A stretch of DNA of 64,000 nucleotides from Candidatus Micrarchaeota archaeon (GTDB taxonomy: Archaea > B1Sed10-29 > JAJRYS01), in NCBI GenBank assembly GCA_964643685.1, contig CAZXTN010000001.1:118737-182736 (forward strand), in the 5' to 3' direction. This document shows positions 9,911 to 48,068 of the stretch, piece after piece. The notes beneath the pieces were generated by a model. That model was not told the DNA's origin. It worked only from the letters and a program-made list of their open reading frames with translations, and searched no databases. Numbering within the stretch: the stretch's first letter is position 1; each line of letters begins with the position of its first letter. The position numbers and the translations under genes were made by a program.

Positions 9911-11344
9911 ATGGACTTAGCACAATTAAACAAAATATCAGAATACGAATGGGAAATAGAGCAAACAGGAAACATGAACGTACCTGGAAAAATATTCGCT
10001 TCACAGTCACTAGTTGAAGCAATGGGAGACAAGGTAAAAGAACAGATTCAAAACGTGGCCCAATTGCCAGGAATACAAAAAGCAGCAATGGCAATGCCAG
10101 ACGCCCACTGGGGCTACGGGTTCCCAATAGGAGGAGTAGCAGCATTTGACCCTGAAGAAGGAGGAGTCATCTGCATGGGAGGAGTTGGCTACGACATCTC
10201 ATGCGGAGTAAGGACACTTAAAACAAACATGACACTGGAGGAAATACAGCCTTACTTAGAGCCGCTAGCAGATGAATTATTTAAAACAGTACCAGCAGGG
10301 CTCGGAGTGCATGGAAAAATAAAATTAAACGTCGAGCAATTAGATGAAGTTTTAGTAAACGGAGCAGAATGGGTTATTGAAAAAGGATATGGCTTAGAAG
10401 AAGACTTGGAATACACTGAAGAAAGGGGAAAAATGGGAGGAGCAGACCCAACAAAAGTTTCATACAAAGCAAAAAAAAGACAATTTAAAGAGATAGGAAC
10501 ACTCGGCTCAGGAAACCATTACCTAGAAATACAATACGTTGATGAAATCTATGATGAAAAAATAGCAAAAATGTATGGATTGGAAAAAAACCAAATAGTA
10601 ATTTCACTGCATTGCGGTTCAAGAGCACTCGGACACCAAATAGGAGTTGATTACACAAAAACGCTGACAGAAGCAGCTGAAAAATACAAGCTAAATCTAC
10701 CAGACAAAGAATTGGCAGCAGCTCCAATCAACTCGCCAGAAGGACAAGATTACTACGCTGCAATGAAAGCAGGAGTAAACACAGCACTTGCAAACAGGCA
10801 AGTGATAGGTCACTTGGCAAGAACAGCATTTGAAAAAATAGTTCCAAACAGCGAAGTAAAAATGTTCTATGACATTTCACACAACACATGCAAAGAAGAA
10901 GAACATGTGATCGGCAACAAGAAAAAGAAATTATTCGTGCACAGGAAAGGGGCGACAAGAGCATTCGGCCCAGGCAGAAAAGAACTGCCAAAAAAATACA
11001 TGCAAGCAGGACAGCCAGTATTAATAGGCGGAACAATGGGAACATCTTCTTTCATTTTAGCTGGAACAGAAGAAGGAACTGAAAAAACATTCGGAAGCGC
11101 CTGCCACGGAGCAGGGAGAGGAATGAGCAGGAAACAAGCTAAAAAACAATTCCACGGAGAAAGCATAGTAAGCCAGTTGAAACAGCAGCAGAAGATAATA
11201 GTAAAAGCCCATTCAGCAGCAGGAGTAGCTGAAGAAGCGCCAGGAGCTTATAAGAATGTAGAGGAAGTGGTAAATTCCGTGCATTACACTGGCTTAGCTA
11301 AAAAAATAATCCGCTTAAAGCCACTAATAAACATTAAAGGATGA
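9911..11344 (+). CDS. rtcB: RNA-splicing (tRNA) ligase RtcB
   Basis: RtcB motifs (PDAHWGYG, GSGNHY, CHGAGR); GGAGGTG SD 9 nt upstream of ATG 9911; no intein. Confidence 0.9.
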   Translation: MDLAQLNKISEYEWEIEQTGNMNVPGKIFASQSLVEAMGDKVKEQIQNVAQLPGIQKAAMAMPDAHWGYGFPIGGVAAFDPEEGGVICMGGVGYDISCGVRTLKTNMTLEEIQPYLEPLADELFKTVPAGLGVHGKIKLNVEQLDEVLVNGAEWVIEKGYGLEEDLEYTEERGKMGGADPTKVSYKAKKRQFKEIGTLGSGNHYLEIQYVDEIYDEKIAKMYGLEKNQIVISLHCGSRALGHQIGVDYTKTLTEAAEKYKLNLPDKELAAAPINSPEGQDYYAAMKAGVNTALANRQVIGHLARTAFEKIVPNSEVKMFYDISHNTCKEEEHVIGNKKKKLFVHRKGATRAFGPGRKELPKKYMQAGQPVLIGGTMGTSSFILAGTEEGTEKTFGSACHGAGRGMSRKQAKKQFHGESIVSQLKQQQKIIVKAHSAAGVAEEAPGAYKNVEEVVNSVHYTGLAKKIIRLKPLINIKG

Positions 11345-23246: not shown

Positions 23247-24590
23247 ATGCTACCAGAAGTAACCAGCCCTGAAAAAAAACCAGTACTAAAACAAAGACTA
23301 TACTGGGTCGGCTTTGCATTACTAGTTTTTGCAATTTTAGGTGTAACAAAACCAATAGGAGTCGCAGCAGTTGAACAATCAAACTATTTGCAGCAAATAC
23401 AATTAATAACAGCTTCTAAAATAGGTTCACTTGCAACACTTGGAATAGGACCAATAGTAATGGCATCAATAATACTCCAACTGCTAATGGGAGCCAAAAT
23501 AATAGACATCAACCTGCAAGACAAAGAGCAAAAAAAGTTATACCAAGGACTTCAAAAAATAGCAGGCATACTATTCGCATTCTTTGAAGCAGGAATCTAC
23601 GTAATGAGCGGATTCGTACCAGCACAACCAGGAATAATCAGCACCTTCTTCTTAATATTCCAACTAGCATTCGCAGCAATAATCCTAATGTACTTAGACG
23701 AACTCATATCAAAATACGGAATCGGCTCAGGAATAGGGTTATTCATAGCAGCAGGAGTTTCATTTACAATAATATGGAGAGCGCTATCATGGGTAAAAGC
23801 ACCAGGAACAATGACATACATAGGACTCATACCACAGTTATTCCAAGGGATAATGACAGGGAACATACCAGAAACAGCAATATTCCCATTAATATCAACA
23901 GTAATAGTCTTCCTAGCAGTAGTCTTCGCCGAATCCATGAAAATAGAAATACCTCTAACTTTCGGAAGAATAAAGGGATACGGAGCAAAATACCCACTTA
24001 AATTCTTATACGTTTCAAATATACCCGTCATATTCGCAGCAGCACTCCTATCAAACATACAGCTAATAGGAATAACACTACAAGGATTCGGATTCCCAAT
24101 ACTAGGACAATTCGTAAACAACAGACCAGTCAGCGGAATAGCATACTACCTAAAAGCACCATACGGAGCATTAGCAAACCCAGCGCAGATAGCAATCACA
24201 CTAAGCTCAACACAAACAATACTAAACATAATAGTTTACGCAATAGTATTAACAGTACTTTGCGTCATATTCGGAAAATTCTGGATAGAAATAAGCGGAA
24301 TGAGCTCAAAAGAAGTAGCACAACAACTCCAGCAAGTAGGATTACACGTACCAGGATTCAGAAGAGACCCAAGAGTAATAGAAAGCGTACTAGACAGATA
24401 CATCCCAATAATAACAGTAGTTGGATCAGCAGCAGTAGGACTACTTGCCATATTCGCAGACCTCACAGGAGCACTTGGAACAGGTACAGGAATCCTCCTA
24501 ACAGTAGGAATACTCTATAAGATGTACGAAGAACTCGCAGCACAACAAGCAGCAGAACTAATGCCAATGCTAAAAGGGTTAATAGGATAA
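23247..24590 (+). CDS. secY: preprotein translocase subunit SecY
   Basis: 10-TM SecY/Sec61alpha; ATG 23247 follows rpl15 stop by 1 nt (ORF track start 23193 overlaps rpl15). Confidence 0.9.
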   Translation: MLPEVTSPEKKPVLKQRLYWVGFALLVFAILGVTKPIGVAAVEQSNYLQQIQLITASKIGSLATLGIGPIVMASIILQLLMGAKIIDINLQDKEQKKLYQGLQKIAGILFAFFEAGIYVMSGFVPAQPGIISTFFLIFQLAFAAIILMYLDELISKYGIGSGIGLFIAAGVSFTIIWRALSWVKAPGTMTYIGLIPQLFQGIMTGNIPETAIFPLISTVIVFLAVVFAESMKIEIPLTFGRIKGYGAKYPLKFLYVSNIPVIFAAALLSNIQLIGITLQGFGFPILGQFVNNRPVSGIAYYLKAPYGALANPAQIAITLSSTQTILNIIVYAIVLTVLCVIFGKFWIEISGMSSKEVAQQLQQVGLHVPGFRRDPRVIESVLDRYIPIITVVGSAAVGLLAIFADLTGALGTGTGILLTVGILYKMYEELAAQQAAELMPMLKGLIG

Positions 24591-24591
24591 A

Positions 24592-25077
24592 GTGAAAAAT
24601 AAAATGGCAATAATAGAACTAACAGCATCAGGAACAGAAGTAACATTAATAGCAATAGCAATAACTTTGCTAACATTCACAGCAAACAAAATATTTATCA
24701 ACCAAGATGAATTTGAAAAAGTGCAAAAAAGAACAAAAGAAATAAACAAAAACATGAAAAAACACGCAAAAACAACAGACGAAAACATAATGAAAAAAAT
24801 AGAAGAAGAACAAAAAGAGCTAATGGAATTAATGAGCAAACAATTCAAAATGAGCATAAAACCAATGATAGTGACATTAATCCCAATAATGATAATATTT
24901 ACAGCAATAAAAGCAAAATATGACAAATCAGGAACAATAGCAACACTCCTTGGAATAAACCTCACATGGTTCTGGTGGTACTTTGTAGTTGTAATCATAA
25001 CAAGCTCAATACTTAACAAAGCATACACAGCAATAAGACAATACAAAAAAACAAAGAAAGCAAAGGAGGGAAAATAA
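24592..25077 (+). CDS. DUF106-family membrane protein (archaeal Oxa1/YidC/EMC3-like)
   Basis: 3 TM segments with coiled-coil between TM1 and TM2; conserved position after secY. Confidence 0.5.
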   Translation: MKNKMAIIELTASGTEVTLIAIAITLLTFTANKIFINQDEFEKVQKRTKEINKNMKKHAKTTDENIMKKIEEEQKELMELMSKQFKMSIKPMIVTLIPIMIIFTAIKAKYDKSGTIATLLGINLTWFWWYFVVVIITSSILNKAYTAIRQYKKTKKAKEGK

Positions 25078-25078
25078 A

Positions 25079-25402
25079 ATGCCAAGACCAAGCGAAAGAA
25101 CAACAAAAAGAAGAAAAATATACAAAAAGACACCAAAAGGAACAGTAAAAAAAATAGTCAAAAGAAGAACAACAACAAAAGCAAAATGCGCAATCTGCGG
25201 AAAAACACTACAAGGAGTAAAAACAACAAAAGGACTTGCAAAAACAAAAAAACGCCCAGGCAGAAAATACTCAGGACACTTATGCTCAACATGCACACAA
25301 AAAATCATAAAACTACAAACAAGAATAAACGAAGGAAAAATGTACAAAAAAGACGCTGACATAAAATACCAAAAATATCTAACAGGCAAACAAAAACAAT
25401 AA
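25079..25402 (+). CDS. rpl34e: ribosomal protein L34e
   Basis: L34e zinc ribbon CAICGK...CSTC. Confidence 0.85.
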   Translation: MPRPSERTTKRRKIYKKTPKGTVKKIVKRRTTTKAKCAICGKTLQGVKTTKGLAKTKKRPGRKYSGHLCSTCTQKIIKLQTRINEGKMYKKDADIKYQKYLTGKQKQ

Positions 25403-25416
25403 AAAAAGATGAAAAA

Positions 25417-25977
25417 ATGCAAGTAACAATAGCAGGAGAACCAGGAGCAGGAAGCACAACAATAGCAAAAAAACTCGCAAAAAAAACAGGATACAAATTA
25501 ATAACAACCGGAGAAATAGTAAAACAAATAGCAAAAAAACAAAACAAGACAATAGAACAACTCTGGCAAGAACAAGACAAAAACCCAAAAAAAGAAAAAC
25601 AATTCAACAACAAAATAAACAAACAGCAAAAAGAACAAGCAAAAAAATACAAAAACGTGATAATAAACGGAAAACTAAGCGCATACAACAACCCAAAAGC
25701 AGAACTCAAAATACTCCTAACAGCAGACATAAAAACAAGAGCAAAAAGAACAGCAAAAAGAGACAAAAGAACAATAAAAAAACAACAACAAGAACTTGAA
25801 AAAAGAGAAAAAGAAGAAAGAACAAACTGGAAAAAAATGTACAAATTCGACTACGTAAAAGACAAAAACAAATACGACATGATAATAGACACAACAAACC
25901 TAACGCCGATAAAAATAACAAACGCAATAATAAAAGAAATAAAAAACATACAAGAACAAGCAAAAAGGAGGAAATAG
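25417..25977 (+). CDS. cmk: cytidylate kinase (archaeal type) with K/Q-rich insertion
   Basis: P-loop IAGEPGAGSTT; conserved position between L34e and L14e. Confidence 0.8.
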   Translation: MQVTIAGEPGAGSTTIAKKLAKKTGYKLITTGEIVKQIAKKQNKTIEQLWQEQDKNPKKEKQFNNKINKQQKEQAKKYKNVIINGKLSAYNNPKAELKILLTADIKTRAKRTAKRDKRTIKKQQQELEKREKEERTNWKKMYKFDYVKDKNKYDMIIDTTNLTPIKITNAIIKEIKNIQEQAKRRK

Positions 25978-25979
25978 AA

Positions 25980-26246
25980 ATGGCAATCATAGAAAAAGGA
26001 AGAATCTGCATAATAACAAAAGGAGCAGACACAGGCAAAGAAGCAGTAATCAAAGAAGTAATAGACAAGAACTTCGTAATAATCATAGGAGAGAAAGTAA
26101 AAGAAAGACGCTCAAACATCAAGCACTTGGAACCAACAGACAGGACAACAAATACAATGCCAACACCAAAAACAAAACCAGCAAAAGAAAAAAAGCCGCA
26201 GCAAACAAAAAAAGCAGCACCTAAAAAGGAAGAAAAGAAAAAATAA
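25980..26246 (+). CDS. rpl14e: ribosomal protein L14e
   Basis: KOW-like L14e family. Confidence 0.85.
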   Translation: MAIIEKGRICIITKGADTGKEAVIKEVIDKNFVIIIGEKVKERRSNIKHLEPTDRTTNTMPTPKTKPAKEKKPQQTKKAAPKKEEKKK

Positions 26247-26287
26247 AAACCCAACAGCTACTTCTCTTTTTTCCAAGTGAATAAAAA

Positions 26288-27118
26288 ATGAAAGGAATAA
26301 TAATCCTAGACAAGCCGAAAGGCATGACAAGCAACCAAACAAGTCTAGCAGTAAAGCAAATTCTAAACGAAAAAACAGCACACGTAGGAACACTAGACCC
26401 AAACGTAACAGGCATCCTGCCAATACTAGTAGGAAAAGCAATCAAACTGCAGGAATTTCTACAAGCACATGACAAAGAATACGTATGCATAATGAAAACA
26501 AAAGAAAAAATTCCAGAAGAGGAGATAAAAAAAACATTCGAAGAATTCACTGGAAAAATTTACCAAAAACCACCTGAAATAAGCGCAGTAGCAAAAAAAA
26601 CAAGAGTAAGGAAAATTTACTCACTTGAATTACTGGAAACAAAAGACAACTTCATCTTATTCAAAACCTTCTGCCAGCACGGCACATACATAAGAAAATT
26701 AATCGAAGACTTTGGATTAATCTGGGGAACAGAAACAGAAATGATAGAACTCAGAAGAACAAACGCAGGAGGATTCACAGAACAAGAAGCAGTAACTTTG
26801 CAGGAAGTCTTAGATGCTGTCAAATTAAAAGAAAAAAAACCAGAACTATTAAACAAAATAATCAAGCCAGTTGAATACGCAGTTAAAAGAATGCCCAAGG
26901 CAATAGTTAAAAACACAGCAGTTAAAAACATCCAAAACGGGGCGCCAGTATACTCAGCAGGAATAATCGAATTAAAAGGAGACGTAAAACACGACAAGCC
27001 AGTGGCAATCTTAACGCAGGAAGGAAAGTTAATAGCAGTTGGAATAAGCTTGTACGATAAGCCAGAGACAAGGAAACATAAAAAAGCAATAAAAACAAAA
27101 AAAGTAATGAGAATATGA
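26288..27118 (+). CDS. cbf5: tRNA/rRNA pseudouridine synthase Cbf5 (TruB family)
   Basis: TruB motif GTLDPNVTGILPI; PUA-like C-terminus. Confidence 0.85.
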   Translation: MKGIIILDKPKGMTSNQTSLAVKQILNEKTAHVGTLDPNVTGILPILVGKAIKLQEFLQAHDKEYVCIMKTKEKIPEEEIKKTFEEFTGKIYQKPPEISAVAKKTRVRKIYSLELLETKDNFILFKTFCQHGTYIRKLIEDFGLIWGTETEMIELRRTNAGGFTEQEAVTLQEVLDAVKLKEKKPELLNKIIKPVEYAVKRMPKAIVKNTAVKNIQNGAPVYSAGIIELKGDVKHDKPVAILTQEGKLIAVGISLYDKPETRKHKKAIKTKKVMRI

Positions 27119-27223
27119 GATATGACTACTATGATAAATTCATTGACAAAAAAACAATAGGGATAAGAGACATAACTCCCATATTTTACAAAAAAAAAGG
27201 CATTCAACCAACTAATCAAAGAC

Positions 27224-27670
27224 ATGTCAAAACCATTTAAAAAACAAAAAATAGATAAAATAGCAGCTATTGACGCAATGGGATTTATACTCGGCTCAGC
27301 AATGGCTCTAGAATTAAAAACAGGATTTGTGCCAATAAGAAAAGAAGAAAGATTACCTGGAATGAAAAAAATAAGCACTTCATTCATAGATTTCAGCAAG
27401 AAGAAAAAAGCACTTGAAATAAACCAAGCATCAATTAAAAAAAATGAAAAAATATTAATAGTAGATGACTGGATGGAAACAGGCTCACAAATAAGAGCAG
27501 CAATCAAGCTAATTCAAAAACAAAAAGGAAAAGTAATAGGCATAAGCCTCTTTGCAGCAGAAAAAAAAGAAGAAACAAAAGAACTGTTTGACAAATACAA
27601 AATAAAAGCAGTAGGAGTATTTGAAGGAGAAGAACTTGAAAGAATAAAAAAACAAATAAAAAGGTATTAA
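27224..27670 (+). CDS. apt: adenine/purine phosphoribosyltransferase-like protein (main ORF; N-terminal hood encoded upstream in +... shifted frame 27115-27198)
   Basis: PRT type I fold: IDAMGFILGSAMALELKTGFVPIRK, VDDWMETGSQ PRPP-binding loop. Confidence 0.75.
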   Translation: MSKPFKKQKIDKIAAIDAMGFILGSAMALELKTGFVPIRKEERLPGMKKISTSFIDFSKKKKALEINQASIKKNEKILIVDDWMETGSQIRAAIKLIQKQKGKVIGISLFAAEKKEETKELFDKYKIKAVGVFEGEELERIKKQIKRY

Positions 27671-27697
27671 GGAGTATAATAACTATAAAAAATAAAA

Positions 27698-27891
27698 GCG
27701 GTGGTCGCATAGTCCCTCGTAAAAACGAAGTTTTTTCGTTGGGTGCAATGGCTATTGCGCCAGCCTGGAAACAACCCATAAAAATACAAAAAGGTTGACT
27801 GCAAGCTGGTGTCCTCCGGGGCACGCGAGTTCAAGTTTGCGACAAGGTTCCCTCGTCGAACTTTTCGCAAGCGAAAATCTCGCCCACCGCG
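27698..27891 (+). tRNA. tRNA-Ser (anticodon GGA) with three introns: D-loop (~27714-27748), canonical 37/38 (27771-27803), T-loop 59/60 (27835-27876); CCA not encoded
   Basis: Acceptor GCGGTGG/CCACCGC+G, anticodon stem CCAGC/GCTGG with loop CTGGAA|A, variable arm TGTCCTCCGGGGCAC (near-identical to tRNA-Ser(TGA)), T-stem GCGAG/CTCGC with spliced T-loop TTCAAAT. Confidence 0.65.
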
Positions 27892-27912
27892 CTTTAGAAA
27901 GATAAATCAAAA

Positions 27913-27924
27913 CGTTTATAAATG
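27913..27924 (+). promoter_or_regulatory. BRE/TATA-like box CGTTTATAAATG upstream of the S13-S4-S11-rpoD operon
   Basis: Shared TTTATAAA motif. Confidence 0.4.
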
Positions 27925-28045
27925 AATTGAATTACAAATAATACACTTAAAAATTCTTTTTAAAAAAAGTCGGCGAGCTCCTTAAAAGCGATGACCTACT
28001 GGAAACAAAACTAATTCAAAAAAAAATTGGAAAAAAAGATGCAAG

Positions 28046-28627
28046 ATGGCTAAAGTTAAAGAAGTTAAAAAAGAAAAACCTAAGCAGGAAAAGCAGAAAA
28101 AGAAAATTGTCCAGGAAAATTCAGAATTTAAAGGAAGGTTAAGGATAGCTGGAAAAGAAGTAAAAGGGCAGTATTCTATTAAAAAAGCAATTAGTCAAAT
28201 AAGAGGAATTGGAACTAATTTAGCTGACACTCTTGAAAAAATTATAATTAAAAAATTAAACCTTAAAGAAAATGAAAAAATAGGAAACTTGACAGATGAG
28301 CAGTTAGATGAACTTGAAAAAATAATAGCAAATCCGAAAGAAAACGGAGTACCTGCTTGGATGTTGAACAGAAAAAAAGACCCTGAAACAGGAGAAGATA
28401 AGCATTTAATATCATCAGATCTTGACTTCCAGAAAAAACAAGACATAAAAGGATTAATTAAAATAAAGGCATACCGCGGAGTAAGGCACATGTATGGATT
28501 GACATCAAGAGGACAGAGGACAAAAACAAGCGGAAGAAAAGGATTAACTCTTGGAGTACAGAGGAAGAAAAACAAGCCTGCTCAGAAGAAGAAATCAAGC
28601 GGGCAATCAAGTGGAAAAAAGAAATAA
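28046..28627 (+). CDS. rps13: ribosomal protein S13 (with ~25-aa K-rich N-terminal extension)
   Basis: S13/S18e core (IRGIGTNLADTL). Confidence 0.9.
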   Translation: MAKVKEVKKEKPKQEKQKKKIVQENSEFKGRLRIAGKEVKGQYSIKKAISQIRGIGTNLADTLEKIIIKKLNLKENEKIGNLTDEQLDELEKIIANPKENGVPAWMLNRKKDPETGEDKHLISSDLDFQKKQDIKGLIKIKAYRGVRHMYGLTSRGQRTKTSGRKGLTLGVQRKKNKPAQKKKSSGQSSGKKK

Positions 28628-28640
28628 AAAAAGTGATTAA

Positions 28641-29408
28641 ATGGGTTCGCCAAGAAAACTAAGGAAAAAATACAACACCCCCTCACATCCATGGGAAAAA
28701 GAAAGAATAAAAGAAGAAAACAGGTTCCTTAAAGAATATGGGTTGAAAAACAAAAGAGAAATTTGGAAAGCAAAAACCATGCTTAAAAAGTACAGGCAAC
28801 AAGCAAGAGAATTAGTAGGTTTGTCAGGAGAAGAGAGAAAAGAAGCTGAACAAATACTTGTGTCAAAACTTCAAAGATTAGGTTTACTGCAAAAAGAAGC
28901 AGGATTAGATGAAATTTTATCCTTAAAAGTAGAAGACTTGCTATCAAGAAGACTACAGACAATTGTATGGAAAAAAGGATTGGCATTAAGCCCAAAGCAA
29001 GCAAGACAATTCATAACACACGGTCATATCTCATTAAATGGAAGAAAAGTAACAGCACCTGGAATGATGATAAAAGTAGAAGAAGAAAAAGAAATTGACT
29101 GGTATGGCAAACCAATTGAATTGCAGTACCCTAAAAAAGACACTACTCTTGAAGTAATTGAAAAAGAAGCAAAAAAAGACAAGGAAACGACAAAATTAGA
29201 AGAAAAAGCAGCTGAAGAAATAATTGAAGAAGAGCAAGCAAAAGAGGAGAAACAAGAGAAAGAGGAAGAAAAAGAAGCAGCTGAAACAGCAGAAGAAATT
29301 CAAGAAGAAAAAGAAAAAACAATAAAAGAAATAGCAGAAGAAGCAAAACCAACACCAGAAGAAAAACAAGCAGCAGAAGAGGTAAAAAAAGAAGCAGAAA
29401 GTGAATGA
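28641..29408 (+). CDS. rps4: ribosomal protein S4 with E/K-rich C-terminal tail
   Basis: S4/S9e core plus ~90 aa acidic tail containing [11 protein letters not shown] module shared with S3. Confidence 0.9.
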
Positions 29409-29806
29409 TTATGGCAGCTAAAAAAGACATTTGGGCAGTAGCACATATTTACTCATCAAAAAACAATACAATAATAACAATAACAGACTTGACGGGAGCA
29501 GAAACAATAGCAAAATGCTCAGGTGGAATGGTTACTGACTCTCAGAGAAAAGAAGGAGCAGCTTCAACAGCAATGGTAGCAGCTCAAAAAGTAGCAGAAG
29601 TATGCAAAAACAGAAACATTTACGGATTACATATTCAAGTAAGAGCCCCAGGCGGACACAAGTCAAAAATGCCAGGACAAGGAGCACAAGCAACAATAAG
29701 AGCCCTTGCAAGAAGCGGAATAAGAATAGGCAGAATAGAAGACGTGACCCCAATCCCACATGACACGACACAAAAACCAGGTGGAAAAAGAGGAAGAAGA
29801 GTATGA
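29405..29806 (+). CDS. rps11: ribosomal protein S11
   Basis: S11/S14e family. Confidence 0.9.
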
Positions 29807-30396
29807 GCATGAAAATTGAAAACATAAAAGAAAAAGGAGACAAGATCACATTTACTTTAAAAGGACCTGTTGAATTAGCAAACGCAATAAGAAGAACAGC
29901 AATGGCAGAAGTTCCAACAATGGCAATAGATGAAATAGACGTGTATGAAAATACTTCAAGCTTGTTTGATGAATTCATCGCCCACAGGCTAGGAATGATC
30001 CCATTAACAACTGACCTTAAAACATACGACATAAACAGCAAGTCAGAAAACAAAAAATCAGTCATAATAAGTTTAGACATTCAAGGGCCAGGAGTGTTTT
30101 ACTCAAAAGAACTTAAATCAAAAGACCCTGCAGTAAAACCAGTCTACGACACAATCCCAATAATAGAATTAGCAGAAGGGCAAGCCCTTAGAATAGAAGC
30201 AAAAGCAAGACTAGGCAGAGCAAAAGAACATGCCAAGTTCCAATCATGCCTATGCTACTACAAGGAAAAAAAGCCAGATGAAGAATACCAAGTAACAATA
30301 GAAAGCTACGGAAACCACAAGCCTAAAACAGTGCTCGAAGAAACAATAAAAATACTGAAAAGCAAAGCAGAAGAACTTGAAAAGCAACTAAAATAA
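29803..30396 (+). CDS. rpoD: DNA-directed RNA polymerase subunit D
   Basis: Rpb3/RpoD family; conserved position after S11. Confidence 0.85.
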
Positions 30397-30415
30397 CAAA
30401 AGGTGCTAAGTTAAA

Positions 30416-30751
30416 ATGAAAAAAGGAACAACTAACCCGGAATTAAAAAAACTCATAATTACCTTGAAAAAAACAAAAAAACCAGCATTCATAAAAATAG
30501 CTGAAATGCTGGAAAAGCCAAACAGAAAAAGGCCAGAAGTCAATTTATGGAAAATAAACAAACACGCAAAAGAAGGAGAATTAATAATAGTGCCAGGAAA
30601 AGTACTTGCTCACGGTGAACTTACAAAAAAATTAACAATAGCTTCATTCAACGCATCAAAAAAAGCAATTGAAAAAATAAACAAAACAGGCAAATACATC
30701 AAAATACAAGATGCATTAAAAGAAAAAGCGAGAATAAGAATAATGGGATGA
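30416..30751 (+). CDS. rpl18e: ribosomal protein L18e
   Basis: L18e family. Confidence 0.8.
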   Translation: MKKGTTNPELKKLIITLKKTKKPAFIKIAEMLEKPNRKRPEVNLWKINKHAKEGELIIVPGKVLAHGELTKKLTIASFNASKKAIEKINKTGKYIKIQDALKEKARIRIMG

Positions 30752-30758
30752 ACAAAAA

Positions 30759-31181
30759 ATGATAATCATAGACGGCGAAAACAGCATAATGGGAAGACTC
30801 GGAGCAAAAGTAGCAAAAGAACTCCTAAAAGGAGAAGAAGTCAGAATAATAAACGCTGAAAAAATAATCATAACAGGAAACCCAAAAAACACCGTGGAAA
30901 AATACATGCAAAGAAGAAACTTAAGAGACCCAGCAAAACCAGAAAAAAGCAGGAAAACACCAAGACGCCCTGACTTATTCGTAAAAAGAATAATAAGAGG
31001 AATGCTTCCATACAAGTCAAAAAAAGGACAAGAAGCATACAGAAGACTCCTAGTGCACATTGGAACGCCAAAAGAATATGAAGGAAAAGCAGTCAGAATA
31101 GCAGAGTCAAAATCAAACACAAGCGATTACAAATACATTACAATTGAAAAACTATGCAAAGAACTAGGATGGAAAGGATGA
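30759..31181 (+). CDS. rpl13: ribosomal protein L13
   Basis: L13/L13Ae family. Confidence 0.9.
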   Translation: MIIIDGENSIMGRLGAKVAKELLKGEEVRIINAEKIIITGNPKNTVEKYMQRRNLRDPAKPEKSRKTPRRPDLFVKRIIRGMLPYKSKKGQEAYRRLLVHIGTPKEYEGKAVRIAESKSNTSDYKYITIEKLCKELGWKG

Positions 31182-31618
31182 GAAAAATGGCAGTAAAGAA
31201 AAAAGAAAAGATAGTAGTTACAAAAGGAAAAAAGAAAAAAGCAGTAGCAAGAGTAAGAATAAGAGAAGGCAAAGGAGCAATAAGAATAAACAGGAAGCTA
31301 ATAGACTCAATTGAAGAAAATTACTCAAAAGAAGTCATACTTGAACCAATAAAAATAGCAGAAGAAGTGCTTGGAAACAACTTCTACGAAAAACTAGACA
31401 TAAGCATAAACGCGCAAGGAGGAGGAATAATGGGCCAAGCACACGCAGCAAGAACAGCCCTAGGAAAAGCGCTTATAGAATGGACAGGAAATGAAAAACT
31501 AAAAGAAAAATACTTAGAATATGACCGTTCACTTGTAATAGATGACATAAGACAGAAAGAACCTAAGAAGTACTTAAGAAAAGGAGCAAGAGCAAAACCA
31601 ATCAAATCATACAGGTAA
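31178..31618 (+). CDS. rps9: ribosomal protein S9
   Basis: S9/S16e family; ATG 31178 overlaps rpl13 stop (ATGA). Confidence 0.85.
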   Translation: MRKMAVKKKEKIVVTKGKKKKAVARVRIREGKGAIRINRKLIDSIEENYSKEVILEPIKIAEEVLGNNFYEKLDISINAQGGGIMGQAHAARTALGKALIEWTGNEKLKEKYLEYDRSLVIDDIRQKEPKKYLRKGARAKPIKSYR

Positions 31619-31631
31619 AGAGGTAAAAAAG

Positions 31632-31826
31632 ATGATAATACCAGTAAGATGCTTTTCATGCGGAAAGCCAATAGCACAACATTGGGATGAATACCAGAAA
31701 AAAATAGCTGAAGGCCAAACACCTGAAACAGCACTAAATGACCTGGGAATTGAAAGATACTGCTGCAGAAGAATGTTCCTCTCACACAAGGATTACCTGA
31801 AAGAAATAATCAAATACAAAAAATAA
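31632..31826 (+). CDS. rpoN: DNA-directed RNA polymerase subunit N (Rpb10)
   Basis: MIIPVRCFSCGK...CCRRM zinc motif. Confidence 0.9.
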   Translation: MIIPVRCFSCGKPIAQHWDEYQKKIAEGQTPETALNDLGIERYCCRRMFLSHKDYLKEIIKYKK

Positions 31827-31833
31827 AAAAAGA

Positions 31834-33012
31834 GTGTTTTCCTTGATAAAAAAAATAATAATCAGAAAAATAAAAAACTCAAAAAAAGAAGACACCATAG
31901 AAACAACAATAACCACAAACAAAGGAAAAACAAAAGCATCAGCTCCTTCTGGAACATCAGCAGGAAAACATGAAGTAAAAGCATACAACAAAACAATTGA
32001 AAACTCAATAAAAGAAGCAAAACAAGTTCTTCCGAAACTAATAGGCGAAGACGAAACAAACCAAGAAGAAATAGACGAGTTCTTGAAAAGCAACATAAAA
32101 AAGATAGGCGGAAGCATAGCAATAGCCACTTCAATAGCAATCGCAAGAGCAGGCGCAAAAAAACAAAAAAAACAACTATACCAATACATCAACAAAGGAG
32201 AAGAATACTCAAAACCAATAATGCTAGGAAAATGCATAGGAGGAGGAGCGCATGCAAAAAACTCGACAACAATACAAGAATTCCTCAGCATACCCCTAAC
32301 AGAAAACATGCGCAAAGCAGTGAAGATAAACAAGATAGTTCACAAAGAAACAGCAAGAATACTGAAAAACTACAAAGGATTCACTAAAAAACTAGACTAT
32401 GAAGGAGGATGGACAGCAAACATAACAGACGAAAACGCCCTAGGAGTATTATCAAGCGCAATTGAAAGAACAAGCAAAAAAACAAAAACAAACATCGCGT
32501 TAGGAATAGACGTCGCAGCAAGCGAATTCTGGGACGGAAAAAAATACAAATACAAAAAACACTCAAAAACACCAAAACAACACTATGACTTCATAAAATA
32601 CTTAATAAAAGAATATGACATTTACTACATAGAAGACCCATTCCATGAAGAAGACTTCAAGTCAACAGCAAAGTTAACAAAACAATTCAAAGACAGGCTA
32701 ATAGTCGGAGACGACTTGTTCACAACAAACCCTAAACGCCTCAAAAAAGGCATAAAATTAAAAGCAGGAAATTCAATAATAATCAAGCCAAACCAAATAG
32801 GCACATTGACAGAAGCTTATGAAACAGTTGAAATTGCAAAAAATAACGCTTACACGCCAGTGATCTCGCATCGCTCAGGCGAAACCAAAGATCCAGCAAT
32901 AGCGGATCTTGCTGTTGGATGGGGCATCCCTTTCATCAAAATAGGAATAAAAGGAAAAGAAAGGGAAGCAAAAACCAACAGATTGATAAAAATAGAGAAG
33001 GTGATGAAATGA
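31834..33012 (+). CDS. eno: enolase (divergent, shortened)
   Basis: SHRSGETKD (SGETED-like) motif, PSGTSAGKHE; conserved archaeal position before S2. Confidence 0.75.
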   Translation: MFSLIKKIIIRKIKNSKKEDTIETTITTNKGKTKASAPSGTSAGKHEVKAYNKTIENSIKEAKQVLPKLIGEDETNQEEIDEFLKSNIKKIGGSIAIATSIAIARAGAKKQKKQLYQYINKGEEYSKPIMLGKCIGGGAHAKNSTTIQEFLSIPLTENMRKAVKINKIVHKETARILKNYKGFTKKLDYEGGWTANITDENALGVLSSAIERTSKKTKTNIALGIDVAASEFWDGKKYKYKKHSKTPKQHYDFIKYLIKEYDIYYIEDPFHEEDFKSTAKLTKQFKDRLIVGDDLFTTNPKRLKKGIKLKAGNSIIIKPNQIGTLTEAYETVEIAKNNAYTPVISHRSGETKDPAIADLAVGWGIPFIKIGIKGKEREAKTNRLIKIEKVMK

Positions 33013-33698
33013 AAAAAAATGAAAAACAGCAAACAGCCCCAGATGAAATGACAATAGAAAAATCCCTAGTGCCCCTTGAAAAATACCTGGAAGCAGGAGT
33101 GCACATCGGCTCAAAATACAAGTCAGGGCAAATGAGAAAATTCATATATAAAATAAGAAACGATGGGCTCTGCATACTAAACATAAACGAGTTAAACAAA
33201 AGAATAGCAATAGCAGCAAAATTCCTGGCACAATACGAGCCATCAGACATACTAGTAGTAGCAGGAAGAAACTACTCACAAAAACCAGCAAAAGTATTTG
33301 CTGAAACAATCGGAGCAAAATATATAATAGGAAGATTCATACCAGGAACCCTAACAAACCCTGAAAACGAAAACTTCATAGAACCAAAAATACTATTCAC
33401 AGCAGACCCACCAGTAGACAGGCAAGCAATAAAAGAAGCAAAAAAAGCAAAAATACCAGTAATTTCACTATGCGACACAAGCAATCTCACAAAAAACATA
33501 GACTTAGTAATACCATGCAACAACAAAGGAAAAAAATCAATAGCATTAATCTACTGGATACTAGCAAGAGAATACCTAAAACTAAAAGGAATCATCGAAT
33601 CAGACAAACAATTTGAAAAAACACCAGCTGACTTCGAAACAAGAATAAAAAGAACAAACAAAGAAAGAGACACAAGAAGAAGATTCCAAAGAAGGTAA
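33009..33698 (+). CDS. rps2: ribosomal protein S2
   Basis: S2/SAe family; ATG 33009 overlaps eno stop (ATGA). Confidence 0.9.
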   Translation: MKKNEKQQTAPDEMTIEKSLVPLEKYLEAGVHIGSKYKSGQMRKFIYKIRNDGLCILNINELNKRIAIAAKFLAQYEPSDILVVAGRNYSQKPAKVFAETIGAKYIIGRFIPGTLTNPENENFIEPKILFTADPPVDRQAIKEAKKAKIPVISLCDTSNLTKNIDLVIPCNNKGKKSIALIYWILAREYLKLKGIIESDKQFEKTPADFETRIKRTNKERDTRRRFQRR

Positions 33699-38506: not shown

Positions 38507-38902
38507 ATGAAAATAGTGATTTCAGATCCAAAAACAGGAAAAAGCTACCAAACAGAAATAGATGAAAACAAAAGCAAAGCACTATACGGCACAAAAATAG
38601 ACGAAGAGATAGACGGAGCACTCATAGGACTAAACGGGTACAAGCTCCAGATAAGAGGAGGAACAGACAAAGACGGATTCCCAATGAGAAAAGACGTGCA
38701 TGGAACAGAAAGAAAAAGAATTCTAATCTCGTCAGGCCCAGGCTTCAAGAAAAAAAGGAAAGGAGAAAGAAGAAGAAAAGGAGTGAGAGGAAACACCATT
38801 TCAGAATTCATAGAGCAAGTCAATTTGAAAGTTGTTAAAGAAGGAAATAAAAAACTTGAAGAAGTATATGGAAAAAAAGAAGAAAAAAAAGAAGGTGAGT
38901 AA
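38507..38902 (+). CDS. rps6e: ribosomal protein S6e
   Basis: S6e family. Confidence 0.85.
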   Translation: MKIVISDPKTGKSYQTEIDENKSKALYGTKIDEEIDGALIGLNGYKLQIRGGTDKDGFPMRKDVHGTERKRILISSGPGFKKKRKGERRRKGVRGNTISEFIEQVNLKVVKEGNKKLEEVYGKKEEKKEGE

Positions 38903-40098
38903 GTATCAAAAAAGTAATTCAATCTGAAGTAAACATCGGAGTAGTCGGCCACGTAGACCATGGAAAAACGACATTAGTAAAAGCACTTACAGGAGAATGG
39001 GCTGACAAGCACTCTGAAGAAATCAAAAGAGGAATAACAATTAGATTGGGTTACGCAGAAGCTTCAATATACTACTGCAAAAAAAGCAAGAAGTACTCTC
39101 CAAAACAAGACTGCGGAAACGGAGAAAAAGGAGAATTTAAAAGAAAAGTGTCATTCGTAGATTGCCCTGGACACGAAACCTTAATGGCAGTGACAATGAG
39201 CGGAGCTTCACTCATGGATGGAGCAATACTCATAATCGCTGCAAACGAGCCATGCCCACAACCGCAGACAAAGGAACACTTGCAAGCCCTTAATATTTCA
39301 GGAATAAAAAACATTGTAGTTGTGCAAAACAAGATTGACACAGTTACAAAAGAAGAAGCATTGAAAAACTACAAGCAAATAAAAGAATTCTTAAAAGGAA
39401 GCATAGCTGAAAACGCTCCTATAATACCAGTAGCTTCAAACTATGGGTTGAACATAAGCGCTTTACTTGAAGCAATTGAAAAAACAATACCAACTCCAAA
39501 AAGAGATGAAAAGAAAAATCCTAAAATGCTAATCGCACGTTCATTTGACATAAACAAGCCTAACTCGGAAATAAAAAAACTAAAAGGAGGAGTAGTTGGG
39601 GGATCAGTAATTCAAGGAAAATTAAAAGTAGGTGATGAAATTGAAATTTCACCTGGAATAAAAGTAAATGGAAAATATTTGCCCCTTAAAACAAAAATAG
39701 TAAGCTTATCTACAAAAGAAGGACAGATTAAAGAGGCCCATCCAGGAGGATTAATAGGTGTAGGCACAACTTTAGATCCTTCACTAACAAGAGGAGACAA
39801 TTTAATTGGAAACATTGTTGAATTGAAAGGAAAAACAACCAAGCCAAAAAACTCAATATTAATCAAATTCAAATTATTTGAAAAATTCAAGAACGAGCCA
39901 TTGAAAAAAGGCGAAACAATTGTAATAAATTCAGGCACAACAACCACAATAGGAACAGTTGAACATGAAAACAGGAAAAAAGAAGAAGCTGAAATCAGCT
40001 TAAAAAAGCCAATATGCGCTGAGAAAGGAGACAAGATAGGAATTTCAAGAAAAGAAAGAAGATGGATTCTCATAGGACACGGAGAACTGTTGAAATGA
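38899..40098 (+). CDS. translation initiation factor aIF2 gamma subunit (frame open from 38899 but without canonical in-frame start; probable GTG 38895 plus +1 shift in A6 run)
   Basis: EVNIGVVGHVDHGKTTL, DCPGHE, NKID motifs; zinc knuckle absent/degenerate. Confidence 0.85.
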   Translation, partial: VSIKKVIQSEVNIGVVGHVDHGKTTLVKALTGEWADKHSEEIKRGITIRLGYAEASIYYCKKSKKYSPKQDCGNGEKGEFKRKVSFVDCPGHETLMAVTMSGASLMDGAILIIAANEPCPQPQTKEHLQALNISGIKNIVVVQNKIDTVTKEEALKNYKQIKEFLKGSIAENAPIIPVASNYGLNISALLEAIEKTIPTPKRDEKKNPKMLIARSFDINKPNSEIKKLKGGVVGGSVIQGKLKVGDEIEISPGIKVNGKYLPLKTKIVSLSTKEGQIKEAHPGGLIGVGTTLDPSLTRGDNLIGNIVELKGKTTKPKNSILIKFKLFEKFKNEPLKKGETIVINSGTTTTIGTVEHENRKKEEAEISLKKPICAEKGDKIGISRKERRWILIGHGELLK

Positions 40099-47511: not shown

Positions 47512-47530
47512 AGTCCCGTAGTCTAGTGGC
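47512..47530 (+). repeat. upstream exact copy of tRNA-Gln 5' module (AGTCCCGTAGTCTAGTGGC)
   Basis: 19/19 identity to 47667-47685; followed by three perfect hairpins. Confidence 0.8.
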
Positions 47531-47666
47531 TGCCCCTTTCTTTTTTCGAAAAAAGAAAGTGGTAAGTGTTGCAATTAACGAAGTTAATTGAACCATCAAA
47601 CAATCTTCGATTGTTTGCATGTAGCCCAAAGAAAAAACAGGACTGAGAGAAGTATAAACCAAAAAT

Positions 47667-47920
47667 AGTCCCGTAGTCTAGTGGCCAAGGATTCTGGCCT
47701 TTGGAACGTTTCAACGCCTTCAAAAAAAGGAGTTAAGCGTGGAAACAGCCAGAGACGGCGGTTCGAAACAAAGGGTTACACCCTCTTGACACCTGTCATT
47801 GGGATGCGCTTGCGCTTACCCAATTGTCAATGATAAGGGAAGGGGGGTCAGGAGGACCCTGAAACTGGGGGGGAAACCGCAGGTGTCCCCCGCGGTTCGG
47901 CGAAACTCCGCCCGGGACTA
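47667..47920 (+). tRNA. tRNA-Gln (anticodon TTG) with two introns: canonical 37/38 (47705-47746, 42 nt) and T-loop 59/60 (47768-47906, 139 nt, GC-rich)
   Basis: Acceptor AGTCCCG/CGGGACT+A, D-stem GTCT/GGAT, anticodon stem CTGGC/GCCAG loop CTTTGGA, T-stem GGCGG/CCGCC with spliced T-loop TTCGAAT. Confidence 0.65.
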
Positions 47921-48038
47921 TAACCCATCACTTATTATAAAATCACTAACAGATTTACAAAAAGACCACTAAGCGAAGCGCATGTGGTCTGCGGGGAGAT
48001 CAGAAACTCCCTAGAAATGAGAGGGGCAGCAAGCCCCT

Positions 48039-48068
48039 CGCGTTTCGGAGAAACTCCGCCCGGGACTA
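48039..48068 (+). repeat. downstream near-exact copy of tRNA-Gln 3' module (CGCGTTTCGGAGAAACTCCGCCCGGGACTA)
   Basis: Last 20 nt identical to 47901-47920; 28/30 identical overall with 47891-47920. Confidence 0.8.

What the first reader, a model, noticed from the sequence alone, without database searches (positions are those of the whole stretch)
27115..27223. APRT-like gene needs a +1 frameshift in an A9 tract; its upstream segment starts by ATGA overlap with cbf5
The main ORF (27224-27670) lacks the N-terminal 'hood' of type I PRTases. That hood (MRYDYYDKFIDKKTIGIRDITPIFYKKK, matching the ...PDFPKKGILFRDITPLL consensus) is encoded from ATG 27115, overlapping the cbf5 stop, in the frame one nt upstream. 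It joins the main frame (…AFNQLIKDMSKPF…) exactly at the run of nine A's at 27190-27198. One fewer A would give an intact 185-aa gene. This could be a homopolymer sequencing/assembly error, a real inactivating frameshift, or transcriptional slippage rescue (A9 is long enough).
Basis: seen in the sequence. Interest (0 to 1): 0.5.

Follow-up and report, generated by a model that had tools for sequence, protein, structure and literature searches.

The report
Frameshifted accessory APRT-like gene, real A9
A purine-salvage (APRT-like) gene in this small archaeal genome is split in two by one extra A in a run of nine A's. The extra A is in every available assembly, and the nearest relatives lack the gene, so it is most likely an ordinary gene being lost, not a special decoding signal.

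Summary
ATG 27115 overlaps the cbf5 stop (ATGA). It opens 25 codons of an APRT N-terminus that end at A9 (27190-27198), and the rest of the protein continues in the +1 frame to 27670. Removing one A gives a 184-aa protein (not 185). That protein aligns without gaps to all relatives and to solved APRTs, and it folds as a full APRT (pLDDT 91, TM about 0.8).

- **The A9 looks real.** A Logan assembly of SRR35108318 is 100% identical to the window over 10,013 bp, A9 included. All 4 contigs that carry this locus encode the exact 41-aa frameshift product. About 75 other genes in the window are intact.
- **It is not a conserved recoding site.** All 81 related loci are uninterrupted, with A-runs of 5 or fewer at this site. 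No downstream RNA structure is present.
- **The gene is dispensable in the clade.** The nearest relatives (78-84% nucleotide identity, collinear) have no APRT between cbf5 and the tRNA.
- **The event is young.** There is no further decay (2 of 26 conserved columns differ).
- **Long A runs are avoided.** Coding A-runs of 9 or more are strongly depleted (2 observed, 31 expected).

Best reading: a young frameshifted gene in the process of loss. Leaky rescue by slippage is possible but untested. Interest is low.

The parts
26288..27118 (+). cbf5 (H/ACA pseudouridine synthase, 276 aa). Its TGA stop overlaps the APRT start.
   Evidence: Pfam TruB_N, TruB_C_2 and PUA all score above their cut-offs. 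The ORF is listed.
27115..27189 (+). APRT-like gene, segment 1: codons 1-25 (MRYDYYDKFIDKKTIGIRDITPIFY), the N-terminal hood. The start ATG lies in an ATGA overlap with cbf5.
   Evidence: It is 20/25 identical to P0002. It aligns to the N-terminal region of solved APRTs. The same ATGA overlap occurs in L001.
27190..27198 (+). A9 homopolymer and site of the frame change. The ancestral state is inferred to be A8 (AAA AAA AAG).
   Evidence: It is one of 7 A9 runs in the window, with none longer. A9 is present in Logan contig L082.
27191..27670 (+). APRT-like gene, segment 2, in the +1 frame: KKKAFNQLIKDMSKPF... to TAA. It holds the PRTase core and the PRPP motif ILIVDDWMETGSQ.
27224..27670 (+). 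The ORF as gene callers see it (148 aa, P0001). It starts at Met37, which is an internal residue of helix 1.
   Evidence: The AF2 model places helix 27-41 across this start.
27238..27240 (+). TAA that ends the upstream frame 14 codons after the A run.
27173..27175 (+). TAA that closes the main frame upstream, so the main frame cannot supply the hood.
27698..27892 (+). tRNA-Ser(GGA)-like gene with insertions. It marks the downstream border of the segment (about 27109-27690) that the nearest relatives lack.

Best explanation
The organism's DNA really carries A9. One extra A was inserted, by replication slippage, into an A8 tract (AAA AAA AAG, Lys26-28) of an accessory APRT-like type I phosphoribosyltransferase gene.

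- **Consequence for translation.** Ribosomes starting at ATG 27115, coupled to cbf5, make a 41-aa peptide and stop at 27238-27240. Any initiation at ATG 27224 would give a 148-aa protein lacking the hood and most of helix 1, and it is presumably inactive.
- **Status of the gene.** It is therefore a young pseudogene or a gene in the process of being lost. This fits reductive evolution in this DPANN-type lineage, whose nearest relatives have no gene at this position.
- **Residual product.** Any full-length protein would come only from non-programmed slippage of RNA polymerase or the ribosome on A9.

Shown here: the anatomy, the reality of A9 in independent assemblies, the intactness of all relatives, the absence of the gene in the nearest relatives, and the lack of further decay. 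Inferred: the A8-to-A9 direction and mechanism, the loss of function, and the inactivity of the truncated product.
For: - **A9 is reproducible.** Logan contig SRR35108318_24404 matches window 23434-33446 at 10,013/10,013 bases with no gaps, A9 included. The exact 41-aa product, which only A9 can give, is on 4 contigs. These match, in number and size class, the 4 contigs that carry the neighbouring S13 and L14e proteins. No intact 184-aa version exists in the protein collection.
- **The assembly is not error-prone at homopolymers.** About 75 other CDS read as complete despite 175 A7 and 52 A8 runs.
- **The shift is unique to this sequence.** All 81 related loci give one uninterrupted tblastn HSP across the junction. 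Their A-runs at the site are 5 or shorter in the 18 closest.
- **The gene is dispensable.** Collinear relatives at 78-84% nucleotide identity (L085-L088; Cbf5 77-81% identical) go from cbf5 straight to the tRNA and S13, with no APRT remnant.
- **The truncated product lacks structural elements.** The AF2 model of the repaired protein (pLDDT 91.2) matches full-length APRTs at TM about 0.8. Its helix 27-41 starts at the junction.
- **No recoding signal is present.** The 80 nt downstream fold no better than shuffles (z = 0.10).
Against: - **The ORF shows no second lesion.** Both segments are stop-free in a genome where off-frame stops occur at 0.084 per codon. Only 2 of 26 highly conserved family columns deviate, which is mid-range for the family. 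Either the event is very recent or the gene is still under selection, which would favour slippage rescue.
- **Read independence and platform are unknown.** I could not establish whether the four contigs come from independent read sets, or which platform produced them. A systematic read error is therefore not formally excluded.
- **Other PRTases are unknown.** I cannot tell whether the rest of the genome has another purine phosphoribosyltransferase.
Confidence: 0.6

Rival explanations
1. The frameshift is real, but the gene stays functional through non-programmed slippage. RNA polymerase makes a fraction of A8 or A11 transcripts on the A9 template, or ribosomes slide +1 on AAA AAA AAA. Enough full-length 184-aa enzyme is then made, as described for poly(A)-interrupted genes of Buchnera and Blochmannia.
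For: - A9 is the length at which slippage and selection against it become evident in many prokaryotes, and Thermus dnaX uses an A9 (PMC1088944). Endosymbiont cases are cited in PMC5009743.
- This genome strongly avoids long coding A runs. A-runs of 9 or more number 2 observed against 31.3 +/- 3.0 expected under synonymous shuffling (0 of 300 shuffles). AAG use rises from 0.12 to 0.33 in KKK+ runs. This suggests such tracts are slippery here.
- The ORF is otherwise undecayed.
Against: - No expression data are available.
- No closely related sequence carrying the gene was found in which maintenance of the A9 could be tested.
- The nearest relatives lack the gene, so selection to keep it is doubtful.
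- Avoidance of long runs is equally explained by replication slippage (PMC1088944).
- Among the papers I searched and read, I found no report of transcriptional slippage by archaeal RNA polymerase on A9.
Confidence: 0.22
2. This is a homopolymer sequencing or consensus error. The true genome has A8 and an intact 184-aa gene.
For: - A9 belongs to the longest homopolymer class in the window.
- The ORF is otherwise perfect.
- All four contigs could derive from one read set.
Against: - An independent k-mer assembly (Logan) reproduces A9 within a 10,013-bp stretch identical to the window at every base.
- All 4 contigs carry the A9-specific 41-aa product.
- No A8 version is in a 15-billion-protein collection.
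- No other gene among about 75 is broken, despite 234 A-runs of 7 or more.
Confidence: 0.1
3. This is a programmed, evolutionarily maintained +1 recoding site that regulates APRT synthesis.
For: A slippery A9 sits exactly at the junction, and translation is coupled to cbf5 through the ATGA overlap.
Against: - None of 81 related loci has a two-frame architecture at this site.
- None of the 18 closest checked has a long A run there.
- The closest orthologue reads TAC AAT GCA AAA ATA at the site.
- No downstream structure is present.
- The 0-frame stop lies 14 codons away, not adjacent.
Confidence: 0.03
4. The 148-aa product from ATG 27224 is a functional truncated PRTase, alone or together with the 41-aa peptide.
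For: Met37 is conserved in P0002 and P0020. Gene callers in four sources call this ORF.
Against: - The start removes the hood and most of helix 27-41 of the predicted fold.
- All 81 related loci encode the N-terminal region.
- No SD-like motif is evident upstream of 27224.
Confidence: 0.03

Closest known systems
Adenine phosphoribosyltransferase (Apt; type I PRTase; PDB 4lza, 4m0k, 2dy0, 5zoc; TIGR01090 / NF002636)
   Same: The repaired protein has the full APRT fold (Foldseek TM about 0.8 over 174-177 columns). phmmer aligns residues 11-149 without gaps to APRT chains. Pfam PF00156 scores above its cut-off. It has the N-terminal hood, the RK..LPG loop and the acidic pair of the PRPP motif.
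   Different: It belongs to a distinct subfamily, found in DPANN archaea, Chloroflexota and others. In that subfamily the PRPP loop is an invariant D[ED]W.ETG[SN]Q instead of DDLLATGGT. It scores below every curated NCBIfam APRT cut-off (117 against 125-243 bits), so substrate specificity is unproven. Here the ORF is interrupted.
Poly(A)-tract frameshifted genes of Buchnera and Blochmannia rescued by transcriptional slippage (cited as B244 in PMC5009743)
   Same: An AT-rich reduced genome carries a single-base indel inside a long A tract of an otherwise intact gene, and coding regions avoid long A runs.
   Different: This is an archaeon with a Pol II-like RNA polymerase. There is no expression evidence, only a single case in 64 kb, and close relatives lack the gene.
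Thermus thermophilus dnaX A9 transcriptional slippage and IS-element A9/T9 sites (PMC1088944)
   Same: The slippery motif has the same length (A9) in the sense strand.
   Different: Those sites are conserved and yield two useful products. Here the site is unique to one lineage, and the 0-frame product is a 41-aa stub.
Saccharolobus solfataricus fucA1 programmed -1 frameshift (PMC8211752)
   Same: It is an archaeal gene split into two overlapping ORFs, with intact single-ORF homologues elsewhere.
   Different: fucA1 uses a -1 heptameric slippery site with a putative downstream stem-loop, and its expression has been shown. Here a +1 shift is needed on a homopolymer with no structure.

Membership tests
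Type I phosphoribosyltransferase / APRT | PRTase domain detectable above the curated Pfam threshold | tested here: met
   PF00156 scores 51.2 bits against a cut-off of 26.3 for the repaired protein, and 49.4 bits for the 148-aa ORF.
Type I phosphoribosyltransferase / APRT | Full APRT fold, including the N-terminal hood | tested here: met
   AF2 gives pLDDT 91.2 and pTM 0.89. The top 44 Foldseek PDB hits are all APRTs, with TM about 0.7-0.8 over 173-185 alignment columns.
Type I phosphoribosyltransferase / APRT | Score at or above the curated equivalog cut-offs for adenine PRTase (NCBIfam/TIGRFAM) | tested here: not met
   The best models are NF002636 (117 bits, cut-off 125) and TIGR01090 (117.3 bits, cut-off 185.85). 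I therefore file it as APRT-like, not as a proven APRT.
Type I phosphoribosyltransferase / APRT | Canonical PRPP-binding loop (hydrophobic x4, two acidic residues, then small residues ending TGGT or similar) | tested here: inconclusive
   ILIVDDWMETGSQ keeps the hydrophobic stretch, the acidic pair and T-G. However, the subfamily-invariant W.ETGSQ replaces LLATGGT.
Type I phosphoribosyltransferase / APRT | Adenine + PRPP -> AMP activity | not testable with these tools
   This needs an enzyme assay.
Programmed frameshift / utilised transcriptional slippage site | Shift site and two-frame layout conserved among orthologues | tested here: not met
   None of 81 related loci is interrupted. A-runs at the site are 5 or shorter in the 18 closest. 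The nearest relatives lack the gene.
Programmed frameshift / utilised transcriptional slippage site | Slippery sequence at the junction | tested here: met
   A9 at 27190-27198.
Programmed frameshift / utilised transcriptional slippage site | Stimulatory element (downstream RNA structure) | tested here: not met
   The minimum free energy is -4.1 kcal/mol with z = 0.10 against shuffles.
Programmed frameshift / utilised transcriptional slippage site | Trans-frame product or heterogeneous transcripts observed | not testable with these tools
   This needs RNA-seq or proteomics.
Pseudogene (young, unitary) | ORF disrupted relative to intact homologues, and the disruption present in the real DNA | tested here: met
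   Searches show the disruption. Searches show A9 in all 4 contigs, including an independent Logan assembly. Read-level confirmation is still missing.
Pseudogene (young, unitary) | Further signs of relaxed constraint (extra stops, loss of conserved residues) | tested here: not met
   Only 2 of 26 columns conserved at 85% or more deviate, within the family range of 0-5. There are no extra stops. The event would therefore have to be recent.
Pseudogene (young, unitary) | Gene dispensable in the lineage | tested here: met
   It is absent from the same locus in L085-L088.

The most novel reading that the evidence does not exclude
An archaeal genome keeps a purine-salvage gene in a frameshifted A9 state and expresses it at a low level through slippage of its Pol II-like RNA polymerase (or ribosome sliding) on the A tract. 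This would be an archaeal, DPANN counterpart of the poly(A) rescue seen in insect endosymbionts. The genome-wide purge of coding A-runs of 9 or more would be the footprint of that slipperiness.
Probability: 0.2. Interest if true: 0.5.

Novelty: new member of a known kind. Interest (0 to 1): 0.2.

Why it matters
On its own this matters little. It is one more homopolymer frameshift in a dispensable gene of a reduced genome.

- **Annotation.** The 148-aa 'phosphoribosyltransferase' now in four databases is a fragment. Metabolic reconstructions should not credit this organism with adenine salvage from this locus without read and expression evidence.
- **Gene loss in progress.** The locus shows three states of one gene: intact in a distant relative, frameshifted here, and cleanly absent in the nearest relatives.
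- **A candidate for slippage experiments.** Together with the strong avoidance of coding A-runs of 9 or more, it offers a defined candidate for testing whether archaeal transcription or translation slips on A9.

Tried and rejected
- **Indel simulation.** I simulated +/-1 indels at every homopolymer to find other broken genes. In this tightly packed genome almost any indel near a gene boundary fuses neighbours, so the output was too noisy and I abandoned it. I read all translations by eye instead.
- **Suspected second extra-A frameshift at the aIF2-gamma start** (A6 at 38908-38913). I rejected it. Orthologue P0123 starts MKIKKVIQSE, which matches the window's main frame (VSIKKVIQSE). The DNA shows GTG in L091 against GTA in the window and in L089 at the same codon.
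- **RKEERLP as a sign of decay.** The window has RKEERLP where the small alignment shows near-invariant RKGGKLP. In the 43-sequence alignment, five other members also have E at each of those two positions, so I rejected this reading.
- **Fetching the source contig.** Look-ups through P0001, P0121 and P0122 returned 'not on record'. The look-up through S13 succeeded.
- **Public collections.** The metagenome-contig scan with window peptides gave no confirmed hit. Genome contigs does not hold the source genome.
- **RNA searches.** Rfam (gathering and E-value modes) and default ARAGORN found nothing in the window, nor in the tRNA-like regions.

Full report
**What is in the sequence.** The cbf5 gene (26288-27118; TruB_N, TruB_C_2 and PUA domains) ends in TGA at 27116-27118. 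An ATG at 27115 overlaps it as ATGA. From that ATG a 41-codon ORF runs to TAA at 27238-27240. Its first 25 codons read MRYDYYDKFIDKKTIGIRDITPIFY and are followed by a run of exactly nine A's at 27190-27198. The ORF that gene callers report (27224-27670, 148 aa) lies in the +1 frame. That frame is open only back to 27176 (TAA at 27173-27175), so it cannot encode an N-terminus of its own.

**What the protein is.** The repaired protein hits Pfam Pribosyltran (51 bits against a cut-off of 26). Among NCBIfam models it matches the adenine phosphoribosyltransferase equivalogs best, but below their cut-offs (117 bits against 125-243). phmmer against PDB chains aligns residues 11-149 to solved APRTs with no gap at the junction: ditpifykkkafnqlik against DITPVLKDAKAFNYSIE. 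An AlphaFold model built from a 14-sequence alignment has pLDDT 91.2. Its top 44 Foldseek PDB hits are all APRTs, with TM about 0.7-0.8 over 173-185 alignment columns. In the model a helix spans residues 27-41. A protein starting at Met37 (ATG 27224) would therefore lack the hood and most of the first helix. The family is a distinct APRT-like subfamily with an invariant W.ETG[SN]Q PRPP loop, found in DPANN archaea, Chloroflexota and others.

**Where the frame changes.** The upstream frame matches orthologues through TPIFY, and the +1 frame matches from AFNQLI. The indel must therefore lie within 27190-27199, which is the A run. A8 gives three residues between them, as in every relative, while A11 would add one. 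The inferred ancestral state is AAA AAA AAG.

**Is A9 real?**
- A look-up of the neighbouring S13 protein returned a Logan assembly contig (SRR35108318_24404). It is identical to window 23434-33446 at all 10,013 positions and carries A9 together with the 41-aa and 148-aa ORFs.
- The exact 41-aa product, which only A9 can give, is on four contigs: one of 5-10 kb, one of 10-20 kb and two of 0.2-1 Mb. The S13 and L14e look-ups return the same number of contigs in the same size classes.
- The protein collection has the 148-aa product from NCBI, JGI, ENA and Logan, but no intact 184-aa version.
- About 75 other coding sequences in the window read as complete despite 175 A7 and 52 A8 runs. These include the ribosomal protein operons, EF-2, EF-1alpha, RtcB, SecY and both PolD subunits.

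An assembler or polishing artefact is therefore very unlikely. A systematic read error cannot be fully excluded without the reads. However, the base-perfect agreement of a k-mer assembly argues for accurate reads.

**Is it a conserved decoding signal?** No.
- All 81 related loci fetched encode the protein as one uninterrupted tblastn segment across the junction.
- The 18 closest have A-runs of 5 or fewer at the site.
- The closest orthologue (P0002, 64% identity, also 184 aa, also with an ATGA overlap on its upstream gene) reads TAC AAT GCA AAA ATA there.
- The 80 nt downstream of the run fold no better than shuffles (z = 0.10).

**Context in the nearest relatives.** Searching with Cbf5 found much closer relatives (77-81% protein identity). 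Their contigs (L085-L088) are collinear with the window at 78-84% nucleotide identity, in the order L30-L15-SecY-...-L34e-Cmk-L14e-Cbf5-tRNA-S13-S4-S11. They have no APRT gene. The alignment stops at window 27108 and resumes at about 27750, inside the tRNA. tblastn with the APRT finds nothing in them. So the gene is accessory in this clade. It is intact next to cbf5 in a more distant relative (L001), frameshifted here, and absent in the nearest relatives.

**Age and constraint.**
- Apart from the extra A the gene shows no decay and no stops. This is in a genome where off-frame stops occur at 0.084 per codon.
- 99 of 1,656 possible single substitutions in the gene would create a stop.
- Only 2 of 26 highly conserved family columns deviate (Y93F, E134Q), which is mid-range for the family.

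Either the insertion is recent or the gene is still under some selection.

**Long A runs in this genome.** In 75 intact CDS, A-runs of 9 or more number 2 against 31.3 +/- 3.0 expected when synonymous codons are shuffled (0 of 300 shuffles as low). The AAG share of lysine codons rises from 0.12 in K and KK to 0.33 in KKK and longer runs. This matches the pattern Baranov et al. describe for AT-rich prokaryotes. In their data, selection against slippery runs becomes evident at about nine nucleotides, and it cannot be assigned to replication or to transcription slippage (PMC1088944). The result shows that long A tracts are costly here, and that A8 to A9 is the expected kind of mutation. It also leaves room for leaky restoration of the frame on A9, as in Thermus dnaX and in Buchnera and Blochmannia. 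Among the papers I searched and read, I found no report of transcriptional slippage in archaea. The archaeal recoding review I read cites only fucA1 as a proven cellular frameshift.

**Verdict.**
- **Most likely (about 0.6):** a genuine one-base insertion has disabled an accessory APRT-like gene, giving a young pseudogene on its way to the deletion already seen in sister lineages.
- **About 0.2:** the same real allele, with physiologically useful rescue by non-programmed slippage.
- **About 0.1:** a read-level homopolymer error.
- **A few per cent each:** conserved programmed recoding, or a functional truncated protein.

This is an ordinary kind of feature, well documented here, and of low interest beyond annotation hygiene and as a possible test case for archaeal slippage.

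Noticed in passing
window 38895-38920 (aIF2-gamma start; gene frame continues to 40098); L089 about 1215-1250; L091 1495-1520: The aIF2-gamma gene has no ATG, GTG or TTG between the in-frame TGA (38896-38898) and its GHVDHGKT P-loop, so gene callers truncate it to 350 aa starting at TTG 39046 (P0122). A relative (L091/P0123) starts with GTG overlapping the S6e stop. The window and a second lineage (L089) both have GTA at that codon, followed by ATC or ATT two codons later. Other relatives' calls are also truncated (P0125 starts MDHGKTT, P0162 starts MAVTMSGAS). This may be a non-canonical start codon on an initiation-factor gene in two lineages. It is not a frameshift.
   Followed up: partly
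window 27698-27892: This is a tRNA gene, probably tRNA-Ser(GGA) with a long variable arm, that default ARAGORN and Rfam both miss. Relative L088 has one 40-nt intron at the anticodon loop, found by ARAGORN only with the intron option. L085 has an extra insertion in the T-loop. The window has that insertion plus a third in the D-loop (ccctcgtaaaaacgaagttttttcgttgggtgcaat). The introns appear to have been gained stepwise among close relatives.
   Followed up: partly
window 47512-48068: Two identical tRNA 5' ends (AGTCCCGTAGTCTAGTGGC at 47512 and 47667) are followed by two matching 3' ends (CCGCCCGGGACTA at 47908 and 48056), with long G+C-rich inserts between them. The order is 5',5',3',3', which suggests multi-intron, nested or split tRNA genes. 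ARAGORN and Rfam report nothing here.
   Followed up: partly
window 1-64000, about 75 CDS: The + strand is 44% A, and nearly all genes from 1 to 47.5 kb lie on it. Coding A-runs of 9 or more are strongly depleted (2 against 31 expected under synonymous shuffling; none of 10 or more in the whole window). AAG is used preferentially inside lysine runs of three or more (0.33 against 0.12).
   Followed up: yes
A1 and the 43-sequence family alignment; loci L002-L081: The APRT-like proteins of DPANN archaea, Chloroflexota, Opitutales and others form a subfamily with an invariant D[ED]W.ETG[SN]Q loop in place of the canonical DDLLATGGT. Tested on the window's repaired protein, the subfamily scores below all NCBIfam APRT cut-offs. 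Their substrate may not be adenine.
   Followed up: partly
L007 about 1249-1251: The APRT homologue of a Peribacteria MAG has an in-frame TGA (VF*NLL). This is as expected for genetic code 25 and is not a lesion.
   Followed up: no
L001 1494-3027: In the only relative that shares the cbf5-APRT overlap, the gene is followed by a LAGLIDADG endonuclease gene and a Cas4-like gene, not by tRNA-S13. The downstream context of the APRT therefore differs between the two lineages that have it.
   Followed up: no
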